A stretch of 64,000 bases of DNA from Octopus sinensis (Eukaryota): the NCBI RefSeq assembly GCF_006345805.1, contig NC_043008.1, positions 21,762,001-21,826,000 on the forward strand. The letters run 5' to 3'. Made by a program: the position numbers. Of the stretch, positions 51,023-53,690 are shown one piece after another (positions within the stretch are counted from its first letter, which is position 1; the number at the start of each line of letters is the position of its first letter).

Positions 51023-51058
<36 letters not shown>

Positions 51059-53690
51059 TTAAAATTAAGGATAAAATCTTTATAAGAAATTATCAGTAGT
51101 TAGCGTGAAAAACCTCGTAAGAGGAAAAATCTGTAAATTTTTCCACTTTGAAAATATTTATTTATATTATATAGAGGGTACTATTATTCATTGCACTGAA
51201 GAGCATAGAATGCATATTCTGCATTGATTGCGAAATCACAGGTGATATGTAACTAAATTCTGTTTTTAAATGACTTGCTTTGAAGTTTTGCATTCGGTGC
51301 AATTTGTTTATTTTAGTAGTTTTGACTGCAAGAGTCCCTACTAGCGTGCGGTACCAATGAATAATAGTACCCTCTATATACTATAAATAAATATTTTCAA
51401 AGTGGAAAAATTTACAGATTTTTCCTCTTACGAGGTTTTTCACGCTAACTACTGATAATTTCTTATAAAGATTTTATCCTTAATTTTAAATTTATATTTT
51501 TCTCCTGAATAGTTCAATACTGAATTTTTGTTCCGAATAGGCAGATTGTTACCGAAATGCATTGCAAATAAGCCCGCCATTTTCATAGATATGTAAAGAT
51601 AAACATTCGTGCATGCTACGACGAATTCTACGGTTGGCTGTCGGGTGTGCTATATTGTGTTTTTTCCTTACATGTCTTGAGTTCGTTGCACTGAAGAGCA
51701 TAGAATGCATATTCTGCATTGATTGCGAAATCACAGGTAATATGTAACTAAATTCTGTTTTTAAATGACTTGCTTTGAAGTTTTGCATTCGGTGCAATTT
51801 GTTTATTTTAGTAGTTTTGACTGCAAGAGTCCCTCCTAGCGTGCGGTACCTATGAATAATAGTACCCTCTATATAATATAAATATATATATATATACATA
51901 TATATATACATATATATGCGCGTGCTGGTGTGTGTGTGTGTACATGTATTTGTGCTTCATTGTGTTTATGTTTGTTCTCTGTTCTCTCCTCCACCATCGC
52001 TTGACAACCAGTGTTGATTTCTTTACTTCCCGTCAGCTAGTAGCTCGACCTAAGAGATTTATAGAAAAGTAACCATATTTAAAAATAAGAACTGGTGGCA
52101 ATTAATCTAAGTTGTTCAGGATGGCGGCCCATCATGACCGCAGTTGAATGGCTCAAATGAAAGAAGTCTACTTCACCTTCTTTATATGTATTGAATAATT
52201 ATCACTTACGCCTTCATTGTGAACACTGTTAGGGAATTCCTTTACTTTCGTACTCTTCTTTTCCTTTCACAGTTTCATTTCATATTTTCTATCAACCGAA
52301 CTAGACATTCCGTGTTTTCATTTGCAGCAGCATGCTTTGTTTTATTTTTTTTTATGCTGCAATTACCCATCCATTTCAAATTACTTTTCTTGAATTTCTC
52401 TTAACATAAACCTTGTGCATTGGGCCACTCGTAAGAGGGTAGACTACATTTTGTTGTGATCGTAATTTTAACTCCCATCAATAAAATTTGACTTGCCGCT
52501 TAAGTCGTTTAAATCAAGCAGATACATCATTTCAGCAGCGTCACATCATCTCAGTATAATAAACAACAGCACAAAGAAAGATAAATCTTGTAGTTGCAAG
52601 CATCGTTTATGTTAACGATCAAATGTAGGTTTCCCTTTTATGGACGATTCACAACAATTGATATCCTCCATTAATATTTTCATTAAAAAGATGTCCCGCG
52701 CATAGTTTTCTCTAGTGCTAGATATAAATGAGCTGTGTGTGTAAATGCACGCAGCCTAGTGATTAGAGAGCGTTATGTTCACGATCACAATGTCGTGGGT
52801 TTCATTCCCGAACCGGGTAGCACGGTCTGATATTGAGCAAGGCATTTAATTATATTAATGAACTCATGTGTTTTAATAGGTCTTCTAGGTCCACTAACAC
52901 TTAGGTAAAGACAAGGCGAGCTGGCAGAGACGCTAGCACGCCGGGCGAAATGCTTAACGGTATTTCGTCTGTTGCTACGTTCTGAGTTCAAATTCCGCCG
53001 AGGTTGATTTAGCCTTTCATCCTTTCGGGGTCGATTAAATAAGTACCAGTTACGTACTGGGATCGATGCAATCGACTTAATCCCTTTGGCTGTTCTTGTT
53101 TGTTCCCTCTATGTTTAGCTCCTTGTGGACAGTAAAGAAATAAGAGACATGGTCGTCACACCTGCCTGGGCACCCAGAAAGTAAAGAACCAAAGCAAAGA
53201 CAACCAAGCATTTCATCCAACTTTCTGACACTTCCGCCAATCCATCGTTTTTGGTTGGTACTTTATTTTTCGACCCCAAAAACTGAAGCTTACAGAATTT
53301 GAACTTCTTACGAAAAGGTTGCCACAACAATTATTAGAGTGCATTCTTTTCCACGCTCTAATGGTTCTGATAGCTTTTAACCTTTTCTCTAAATTATAAA
53401 TATTCCACTTATTCTTTAGCTCTTTTATTTGTTTATTTGTTTCAGTCATTTGACTGCGGCCATGCTGGAGCACAGCCTTTTAGTCGAACAAATCAACCCC
53501 AGGACTTATTCCTTGTAAGCCGAGTACTTATTCTATCGGTCTCTTTTGCCGAACCAATAAGTCATGAGGACGTAGACACGCCAACATCGGTTGCCAAGTG
53601 ATGGTGGTGGACAAACACACATACACACAAACACACAAACACACCCACCAACCCACCCACATACCCTGCCATACACACACACAAATATAC

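What the first reader, a model, noticed from the sequence alone, without database searches (positions are those of the whole stretch)
51051..51884. Retrozyme-like element: two hammerheads 495 nt apart plus a Penelope-style 5' inversion
Seen: ~200-bp direct repeats each start with a complete type I hammerhead (CUGAAGA core, 4-bp helix III, AUA site). Copy 2 has an extendable stem I with an internal loop (gagtt/aattc). Cleavage at both sites would release a 495-nt non-coding monomer (51248-51742). A 143-bp inverted arm joins exactly at the first ribozyme. The repeats differ at only a few positions, so the insertion is young, and the whole element sits in a (TA)n tract. Established: Penelope-like elements have tandem/inverted pseudo-LTRs with hammerheads, and animal non-LTR retrozymes give small circular RNAs. 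Inference: a young non-autonomous ribozyme retroelement that may yield a ~495-nt linear or circular RNA. This is the best candidate in the window for an undescribed system.
Basis: partly seen in the sequence, partly recalled or inferred. Interest (0 to 1): 0.85.

Follow-up and report, generated by a model that had tools for sequence, protein, structure and literature searches.

The report
Penelope-style hammerhead retroelement insertion, non-coding
A young, non-coding mobile-element insertion of about 840 bases sits in a TA repeat, carries two hammerhead-ribozyme-like motifs 495 bases apart and has the scrambled layout typical of Penelope-like retroelements, so it looks like one more example of an already described class.

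Summary
The sequence architecture is real. There are 208-nt direct repeats 495 nt apart (97% identical). A 143-nt inverted arm (142/143 complementary) abuts the first repeat. (TA)n tracts lie on both sides, and there is no ORF or Pfam domain. Both repeats carry a formally complete type-I hammerhead core: CUGAAGA, G10.1-C11.1, GAAA, A15.1-U16.1, A17. These are the only two such motifs in the window, and 2 of 300 simulated windows gave one.

Three points weaken the ribozyme claim:
- No Rfam hammerhead model matches, even at E<=10.
- Copy 2 has a G>A change that breaks helix III, and copy 1 lacks the extended helix I.
- No other copy exists in the window, so covariation cannot be tested.

The layout matches published signatures of Penelope-like element (PLE) integration: a partial tandem (pseudo-LTR), an inverted 5'-truncated copy, and a (TA)n target. 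Best reading: a young PLE-mobilised, non-autonomous, hammerhead-bearing element of the non-LTR retrozyme kind. It was made from a circular or multimeric 495-nt template, with priming on both target strands.

This class was described in 2014-2026, so it is not an undescribed system. Cleavage, circular RNA, copy number and the autonomous partner were not testable here. I rate it a new member of a known kind, of moderate-to-low interest.

The parts
51024..51055 (.). Left flanking (TA)16 tract, the presumed target microsatellite. Its last ~5 nt are indistinguishable from the outer end of the inverted arm (microhomology TATAT).
51051..51193 (-). Inverted, doubly truncated copy of unit positions 51355-51497 (142 of 143 identical). 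It is read as cDNA primed from the top strand of the target.
51187..51193 (.). Inversion junction. TTCATTG is shared by the end of the inverted arm and the start of the forward copy. The unit reads TTCGTTG at 51682-51688, so this is a 7-nt microhomology with one mismatch (51190 A versus 51685 G).
51191..51252 (+). Hammerhead-like motif 1:
- helix I: 51191-51195 / 51248-51252 (5 bp, one G.U);
- core CUGAAGA: 51196-51202;
- helix II hairpin: 51203-51231 (3 bp, then a 3x3 internal loop, 6 bp and a 5-nt loop);
- GAAA: 51232-51235;
- helix III: 51235-51246 (4 bp, loop CAGG);
- A17 at 51247, with predicted cleavage 51247/51248.
   Evidence: no Rfam match
51248..51742 (+). The 495-nt non-coding monomer between the two predicted cleavage sites. 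GC is 33%. The circular MFE is -115.7 kcal/mol, z = -4.0.
   Evidence: The z-score is not distinctive against neighbouring controls.
51685..51748 (+). Hammerhead-like motif 2:
- helix I: 51685-51690 / 51743-51748 (6 bp), with a possible distal extension 51679-51683 / 51751-51755;
- core: 51691-51697;
- helix II: 51698-51726;
- GAAA: 51727-51730;
- helix III: 51730-51741, weakened by A at 51739 (C.A mismatch);
- A17 at 51742.
51682..51889 (+). Second copy of the 208-nt direct repeat (pseudo-LTR-like). This is the 3'-terminal partial unit. It ends 138-147 nt after the predicted cleavage site, in a TA-rich stretch of the unit that merges into the right (TA)n.
51870..51917 (.). Right flanking imperfect (TA)n tract.

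Best explanation
This is a young insertion (about 835 bp, 51051-51889) of a non-coding, hammerhead-bearing retroelement with a 495-nt unit. It is a non-autonomous derivative of the Penelope-like element (PLE) world, of the same kind as animal non-LTR retrozymes.

Shown by the sequence:
- 1.42 forward units;
- an inverted 143-nt piece;
- (TA)n on both sides;
- two hammerhead-type motifs in the repeated part;
- no ORF.

Inferred mechanism:
1. Master copies elsewhere are transcribed as multimers.
2. The hammerhead cuts after A17, giving 495-nt monomers that a host RNA ligase can circularise.
3. A PLE reverse transcriptase/GIY-YIG endonuclease cuts both strands of an AT-rich target.
4. cDNA primed on the bottom strand started in a TA-rich stretch of the unit (equivalent to 51385-51394). 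It ran 703 nt, through both ribozyme sites. That requires an uncleaved multimer or a circular template.
5. cDNA primed on the top strand started at a second TA-rich stretch (about 51497-51501) and copied 143 nt.
6. The two cDNA 3' ends annealed at the 7-nt microhomology TTCATTG/TTCGTTG, which created the 5' inversion.

This genomic copy is probably a poor source of the 495-nt RNA. Motif 2 has a damaged helix III, and motif 1 has lost the native 5' side of the distal part of helix I.
For: Architecture:
- The repeats, the inverted arm, the junction overlap and the TA tracts are all confirmed.
- The homology between the two direct repeats stops exactly where the inverted arm begins. One 5'-truncation-plus-inversion event explains this.
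- Both outer ends fall in TA-rich stretches of the unit that blend into the flanking (TA)n.

Motif:
- All invariant hammerhead positions are present in both copies.
- These are the only 2 descriptor hits in the window, among 20 CTGANGA sites and 7 core-only sites. The reversed window gives 0 hits.
- In simulations, 2 of 300 windows had a hit at the stricter setting. By my arithmetic, that is roughly 1e-4 expected within an 839-bp element.
- The hammerhead fold is energetically feasible: -10.0 kcal/mol for copy 1 and -6.9 for copy 2. Both are below the -5 kcal/mol used as an activity filter in the 2026 preprint.

Coding: no ORF of significance and no Pfam domain above cut-off.

Literature read:
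- PLE copies form partial tandems (pLTRs). They often have an inverted 5'-truncated copy at the 5' end and prefer (TA)n in some clades. Hammerheads lie in the pLTRs (PMC8557442 passages).
- A purified PLE protein cleaves and extends both target strands, prefers AT-rich DNA and starts reverse transcription internally, downstream of the hammerhead (PMC11167929 main text).
- Animal retrozymes are non-coding, AT-rich, tandem and hammerhead-bearing, and are proposed to be copied from circles (PMC7229834, sections 13, 14 and 17).
- Those retrozymes are derived from pLTRs (2026 preprint).
Against: - No Rfam hammerhead family matches, even at E<=10 on a 101-nt slice.
- Unconstrained MFE folds do not give the hammerhead shape, and z-scores for the motif are -0.5 to -1.2. 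A competing fold is 3-7 kcal/mol better.
- Copy 2 carries a helix III mismatch. The ancestral state at that position cannot be determined.
[quoted passage not shown] It also lacks the minimal/palindromic helix III reported for metazoan PLE hammerheads.
- There is only one locus. No other copy exists in the window, so there is no covariation and no copy-number evidence.
- No PLE RT/GIY-YIG ORF was seen. Only 18 of 223 non-repetitive ORFs >=60 aa were scanned, and only LINE-like RT fragments were found.
- TRF does not call a tandem repeat.
- The structure z-score of the monomer (-4.0) is matched or exceeded by 2 of 6 neighbouring control segments.
- A hammerhead-free 605-bp x2 tandem duplication bounded by (AT)n lies 2 kb away. 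Microsatellite-bounded duplications therefore arise here without ribozymes.
- At about 0.007 chance hits per 64 kb, a gigabase genome would hold on the order of 100 chance matches (my arithmetic).
- In the one PLE studied in vitro, the hammerhead was not needed for insertion, and no RNA-seq reads ended at its cut site.
- The two reverse-transcription start points inferred here are about 110 nt apart, not the 30-40 nt 'tail' described for PLEs.
Confidence: 0.6

Rival explanations
1. This is a one-off deletion derivative of an autonomous PLE. The 495-nt 'unit' would be only pLTR/UTR sequence of a catalogued full-length Penelope-like element. It would have been joined by template switching during a single abortive integration, and would not be a self-propagating retrozyme family.
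For: - Most PLE insertions are 5'-truncated and complex (passages of PMC8557442; 2026 preprint discussion).
- Retrozyme consensus sequences match PLE termini.
- Only one locus is seen here.
Against: The forward part is collinear through a full unit boundary: segment 51498-51681 runs directly into the second repeat. The template therefore already had a closed 495-nt period with no coding sequence. No RT/EN remnant lies in or next to the element.
Confidence: 0.15
2. This is a DNA-level rearrangement or DNA transposon, and the hammerhead match is chance. Either a foldback/MITE-like element (51051-51497, 143-bp terminal inverted repeats flanked by TA) sits beside a partial second copy, or microsatellite-associated duplication and inversion produced the layout.
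For: - 51051-51497 is a perfect-looking hairpin element flanked by TATA on both sides.
- A hammerhead-free 605-bp tandem duplication bounded by (AT)n lies at 53721-54932.
- No Rfam hammerhead matches.
- The chance rate of the motif is not negligible genome-wide.
Against: - The second copy starts exactly at the inner end of the left arm. That is unexplained coincidence for an independent partial MITE copy but expected for a truncated tandem plus inversion.
- About 1e-4 chance hits are expected within the element, yet the complete core sits in the repeated part, as in PLE pLTRs.
- Both outer ends lie at TA-rich template stretches.
Confidence: 0.15
3. This is an assembly artefact. The tandem/inverted layout would be a mis-join of reads from a repeat family or from two haplotypes.
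For: PLE-type structures are said to cause assembly problems, especially with short reads (PMC8557442 passage). The region is packed with microsatellites.
Against: - The only N run is 18 kb away, at 32596-32695.
- The three copies of the shared segments differ at specific positions. Two of these can be polarised, one derived change in each direct copy. That is as expected for real, separately evolving copies.
- The junctions are clean microhomologies.
Confidence: 0.05

Closest known systems
Animal non-LTR retrozymes (Cervera & de la Pena 2020, PMC7229834; Li, Clavereau & Pollet 2026 preprint, 10.64898/2026.07.22.740005)
   Same: - Non-coding and AT-rich (33% GC).
- A unit of a few hundred nt; the published ranges are 150 to >1000 nt and 51-972 bp.
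- A type-I-topology hammerhead motif once per unit, with two motifs flanking a monomer.
- Proposed copying from a circular or multimeric RNA by PLE machinery.
   Different: - Only 1.42 units at this locus, and TRF does not call it.
- The hammerhead has a long two-part helix II and a 4-bp helix III, and it matches no Rfam model.
- No expression or circularity data.
- The copy carries a PLE-style inverted 5' piece and (TA)n flanks. Neither word, 'inverted' or 'microsatellite', occurs in the main text of the 2020 paper.
Penelope-like elements with pLTR hammerheads (Cervera & de la Pena 2014, PMC4209133; Craig et al. 2021, PMC8557442; Frangieh et al. 2024, PMC11167929)
   Same: - A partial tandem forming a pseudo-LTR.
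- An inverted 5'-truncated copy abutting the 5' end.
- An AT-rich/(TA)n target.
- The hammerhead lies in the repeated terminal part.
- The 3' end of the insertion lies about 140 nt downstream of the ribozyme cut site. In the anole element, reverse transcription starts about 85-92 nt downstream (my subtraction from figures).
   Different: - No RT or GIY-YIG ORF, and the unit is 495 nt rather than about 3 kb.
- The motif lacks the 9/10.1 bulge.
- It has a real helix III rather than the minimal form.
- The inferred start points are about 110 nt apart rather than the 30-40 nt tail.
Twin-priming 5' inversions of LINE-1
   Same: An inverted 5' segment is joined to a forward 3' segment at a short microhomology, with a stretch of template missing between them.
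   Different: The enzyme family differs, and the template here has a repeating or circular 495-nt period. The comparison is by analogy only.

Membership tests
Hammerhead ribozyme, type I topology | Invariant core C3 U4 G5 A6 N7 G8 A9, G12 A13 A14, the A15.1-U16.1 pair, and H17 not G | tested here: met
   Both copies carry CUGAAGA ... GAAA ... U-A17. The numbering is as given in PMC4209133.
Hammerhead ribozyme, type I topology | Three helices around the core, with helix I open and helices II and III closed by loops | tested here: met
   Copy 1 has helix I 5 bp, helix II 3+6 bp and helix III 4 bp. Copy 2 has helix I 6 bp, the same helix II, and a helix III broken by C.A at 51739.
Hammerhead ribozyme, type I topology | Match to a curated hammerhead covariance model (Rfam) | tested here: not met
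   No hammerhead family was listed at gathering score or at E<=10.
Hammerhead ribozyme, type I topology | Compensatory changes in the helices among homologues | not testable with these tools
   There is no other copy in the window. No eukaryotic genome collection was available, and the prokaryote and phage collections gave nothing.
Hammerhead ribozyme, type I topology | Site-specific self-cleavage | not testable with these tools
   This needs in vitro transcription of the unit.
Metazoan PLE minimal hammerhead (PMC4209133) | Enlarged helix II (6-8 bp) and short helix I (4-5 bp), with G10.1-C11.1 | tested here: met
   Helix II has 9 pairs in two blocks, helix I has 5-6 bp, and G10.1-C11.1 is present.
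Metazoan PLE minimal hammerhead (PMC4209133) | [quoted passage not shown] | tested here: not met
   The descriptor hit has bulge = 0. Helix III is a 4-bp stem with a non-palindromic CAGG loop.
Animal non-LTR retrozyme | A tandem repeat detected by TRF, with at least two consecutive units each carrying a complete hammerhead (operational rule of the 2026 preprint) | tested here: inconclusive
   Two motifs lie 495 nt apart. However, there are only 1.42 units, TRF reports no 495-nt period, and the second motif is imperfect.
Animal non-LTR retrozyme | Non-coding, with GC below 50% | tested here: met
   There is no meaningful ORF or Pfam hit. The monomer GC is 0.33.
Animal non-LTR retrozyme | Multi-copy family expressed as linear and circular RNA of unit length | not testable with these tools
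   No source genome or transcriptome was available. Within the window the element is single.
EN+ Penelope-like element insertion | A partial tandem (pLTR) plus an adjacent inverted 5'-truncated copy, and an AT-rich or (TA)n target | tested here: met
EN+ Penelope-like element insertion | A single ORF with RT and GIY-YIG endonuclease | tested here: not met
   There is no such ORF in the element. None was found among the 18 ORFs scanned elsewhere. At most, then, this is a non-autonomous relative.
EN+ Penelope-like element insertion | A 30-40-bp 'tail' extension at one end | tested here: not met
   The two arms end about 106-112 nt apart in unit coordinates: about 51385-51394 versus about 51497-51501.

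The most novel reading that the evidence does not exclude
The locus is a freshly integrated copy of an uncatalogued invertebrate retrozyme family. The family would have an unusually large (495-nt) unit and a non-canonical hammerhead: a two-part helix II, a stable helix III and no Rfam match. The copy still shows the integration scars, namely priming on both target strands inside (TA)n and a microhomology-joined 5' inversion. If so, it would be direct structural evidence, in an invertebrate, that non-LTR retrozymes are inserted by PLE enzymes from a circular or multimeric template. The 2020 paper and the 2026 preprint propose this link but do not show it at the level of insertion junctions, as far as the parts I read go.
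Probability: 0.25. Interest if true: 0.5.

Novelty: new member of a known kind. Interest (0 to 1): 0.3.

Why it matters
If the reading is right, this locus is a clean, datable example of how a hammerhead-bearing non-coding retroelement is integrated. Each copy has about 1% derived change, which makes it datable. The insertion contains more than one unit, which points to a circular or multimeric template. Its two arms begin in TA-rich template stretches and meet at a microhomology. This fits the two-strand cleavage and extension seen in vitro for one PLE protein (PMC11167929).

The locus would add an invertebrate case to the proposed retrozyme-PLE partnership, and a hammerhead variant that current covariance models miss. 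It does not open a new class. The kind of element, its ribozyme and its likely mobiliser are already published.

Tried and rejected
- Rfam at gathering score on the whole window, and at E<=10 on 1.1 kb and on 101 nt: only chance-level miRNA and pseudoknot matches in the TA/TG repeats, and no hammerhead.
- Unconstrained folding of the motif: no hammerhead shape and unremarkable z-scores.
- Structure z-score of the 495-nt circle (z = -4.0, 0 of 150 shuffles). I rejected this as evidence after controls. The minus strand gave z = -2.2. Six neighbouring 495-nt segments gave z = -1.6, -3.9, -2.3, -6.1, +0.5 and +0.3. What remains is a 22 kcal/mol plus-strand advantage, which is weak.
- TRF: the 495-nt period is not reported.
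- The bacterial promoter/terminator scan is irrelevant to a eukaryotic element, and I ignored it.
- ARAGORN: no tRNA-like part.
- Pfam on 18 ORFs: nothing in the element above cut-off. The 135-aa frame 51549-51956 gave only sub-threshold chance hits, the best being Syntaxin at E = 0.015 and 15.5 bits against a cut-off of 26.7. Elsewhere there were only LINE-like RT fragments.
- Taxon: the RT-tail ORF 43116-43697 matched about 1200-aa metazoan non-LTR RTs at <=55% identity, from coral, starfish, anemone, fish and shrimp records. The source species stays unresolved.
- An exact 50-mer scan of prokaryotic genome contigs and blastn against phages gave nothing, as expected.
Copy number, arrays and an autonomous partner therefore stayed unchecked.
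- Supplementary files of the papers were closed. The hammerhead family alignments in the supplements of PMC4209133 and PMC7229834 might already contain this motif.
- Literature searches found no paper on this particular element. With the species unknown, that says little.
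Full report
**What is in the sequence.** The region 51024-51917 was read directly.

- Repeat finding and self-BLAST show two direct repeats of 208 nt, at 51187-51394 and 51682-51889. They are 97% identical and 495 nt apart.
- One inverted pair lies at 51051-51193 and 51355-51497 (143 nt, one mismatch).
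- No further copy of any part of the element occurs in the 64-kb window.
- In terms of a 495-nt unit, the locus is: an inverted piece of the unit (143 nt), then 1.42 forward units (51194-51889).
- A position-by-position comparison gives four differences in the 199 unambiguous shared positions of the direct repeats.
- Where the inverted arm offers a third copy, one change is derived in copy 1 (51381 C) and one in copy 2 (51851 T). The three copies therefore evolved separately after one event, with about 1% change each.
- (TA)16 lies immediately to the left (51024-51055) and an imperfect (TA)n immediately to the right (51870-51917). Tracts of (TA)>=8 cover only 1.6% of the window.
- The only assembly gap is far away, at 32596-32695.

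**The hammerhead claim.** Both direct repeats begin with a stretch that carries every invariant hammerhead position: CUGAAGA, a G10.1-C11.1-closed helix II, GAAA, A15.1-U16.1 and A17. Predicted cleavage is after 51247 and after 51742.

- I wrote a descriptor requiring the core plus three helices. In the real window, on both strands, it finds only these two sites.
- The window holds 20 CTGANGA heptamers. Seven of them have GAAA 7-45 nt downstream.
- The reversed window gives no hit at any of three stringencies.
- Of 300 first-order Markov simulations of the window, 2 had a hit at helix I>=4, II>=3, III>=3. At III>=1, 19 had a hit. At I>=3 and III>=1, 34 had a hit.
- The motif is therefore unlikely to fall by chance inside an 839-bp element (about 1e-4 by my arithmetic). 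The same rate implies on the order of a hundred chance matches in a gigabase genome, so the motif alone proves nothing.

Several results count against the claim:

- No Rfam hammerhead family matches at gathering score, nor at E<=10 in 1.1 kb or in a 101-nt slice.
- Free folding does not give the hammerhead shape, with z between 0 and -1.2.
- The hammerhead fold costs -10.0 kcal/mol in copy 1 and -6.9 in copy 2, against competing folds of -13.0 and -14.2.
Copy 2 has A instead of G at 51739, which turns a C-G pair of helix III into C.A.
- Conversely, copy 1 has a 5-bp helix I and no distal extension, because its 5' flank is the inverted arm. Copy 2 has 6 bp plus a possible 5-bp extension.
- Neither genomic copy therefore has all features intact.

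**No coding capacity.** All frames of the element are closed or meaningless. Pfam gives nothing above cut-off for the three longest frames.

**What the layout means.** The homology between the two direct repeats ends exactly where the inverted arm begins. The two share TTCATTG/TTCGTTG there. Both outer ends of the insertion lie in TA-rich stretches of the unit that run into the flanking (TA)n. One event explains all of this:

1. cDNA primed from the bottom strand of a cut (TA)n target copies 703 nt of a template with a 495-nt period. The template must therefore be multimeric or circular.
2. cDNA primed from the top strand copies 143 nt from a second start point.
3. The two 3' ends anneal at a 7-nt microhomology.

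This is inference, but it matches what I read about Penelope-like elements:

- They form partial tandems that create pseudo-LTRs, often with an inverted 5'-truncated copy next to the upstream pLTR. Some clades prefer (TA)n. Hammerheads lie within pLTRs (passages of PMC8557442).
- A purified PLE protein cleaves and extends both strands, prefers AT-rich DNA and initiates internally, downstream of the hammerhead (main text of PMC11167929).
- The analogy with L1 twin priming is recalled, not read.

**Comparison with what is known.**

- Hammerheads in PLE pLTRs were described in 2014 (PMC4209133, parts 1-2 of 4 read).
- Short non-coding tandem units with type-I hammerheads, expressed as circular RNAs and proposed to be mobilised by PLEs, were described in 2020 (PMC7229834; abstract and sections 13, 14 and 17).
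- A 2026 preprint reports units of 51-972 bp and homology to PLE pLTRs (10.64898/2026.07.22.740005; abstract, sections 3, 4 and 16, and part 1 of 2 of section 11).
- The present element fits that kind in being non-coding, AT-rich, periodic and hammerhead-bearing.
- It fails the preprint's operational tandem-repeat rule, because TRF does not.42 units.
- Its motif differs from both the canonical animal type I and the PLE minimal form. It has no 9/10.1 bulge, and it has a real 4-bp helix III and a two-block helix II.
- It has no RT/GIY-YIG ORF. None was seen among the 18 of 223 candidate ORFs scanned. At most it is non-autonomous.

**Rivals.**

- A one-off deletion derivative of a full PLE cannot be excluded without the genome.
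- A foldback/MITE-like DNA element (51051-51497) plus a partial copy is possible. It leaves the coincidence of boundaries unexplained.
- A hammerhead-free 605-bp x2 duplication bounded by (AT)n lies 2 kb downstream. Microsatellite-bounded duplications therefore do occur here.
- Mis-assembly is unlikely, given the copy-specific substitutions and clean junctions. It needs long reads to exclude.

**Limits.**

- The structure z-score of the 495-nt circle looked good but is not distinctive against neighbours.
- The species could not be determined.
- Copy number, covariation, the autonomous partner, expression and cleavage remain untested.

**Verdict.** The interpretation as a retrozyme-like, Penelope-style insertion is the best available reading (confidence about 0.6). 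The claim of an undescribed system is not supported. This is a probable new member of a known kind.

Noticed in passing
window 53721-54324 and 54331-54932: A tandem duplication of about 605 bp, two full units at 99% identity. Each unit ends in an (AT)n tract, and the descriptor finds no hammerhead-type motif. It could be a recent microsatellite-mediated duplication, another tandem-inserting element, or an assembly duplication.
   Followed up: partly
window 6719-7085, 24036-24403, 40986-41352; also 7953-8493: Three dimers of a 184-bp unit, about 90% identical within each dimer, and one 255-bp x2.1 repeat. They look like dimeric SINE-type repeats. Many ORF fragments across the window translate the same repeat. 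From memory only, the style resembles cephalopod or mollusc SINE-rich genomes; no call supports a taxon.
   Followed up: no
window 43116-43697 (+), 62709-62987 (-), 26559-26825 (-): Fragments of non-LTR (LINE-type) reverse transcriptases. There is a weak zf-RVT hit, two sub-threshold RVT_1 hits, and homology at <=55% identity to about 1200-aa metazoan RTs. None looks like a PLE RT/GIY-YIG ORF.
   Followed up: partly
window 55041-55361 (-): A 107-aa frame with a PPYSPDIAPSDFHLF-type stretch. From memory this resembles the C-terminal part of mariner/Tc1 transposases. Pfam gave no hit at E<=0.05.
   Followed up: partly
window 17961-18511 (+): Frames that, from memory, resemble the N-terminal region of Helitron Rep/helicase proteins. 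Pfam gave no hit at E<=0.05 for 18254-18511.
   Followed up: partly
window 13210-13977, 29946-30285, 9896-10215, 34763-35356, 47371-47781: Very long microsatellites: (ATT) x258, (AAT) x113, and (AT)/(TA) runs of 150-300 units. These low-complexity tracts cause spurious miRNA-family matches in Rfam at relaxed thresholds, as seen for the TA/TG repeats in the slice searched.
   Followed up: no
window 32596-32695: The single run of 100 N (an assembly gap or mask). I left it untouched.
   Followed up: no
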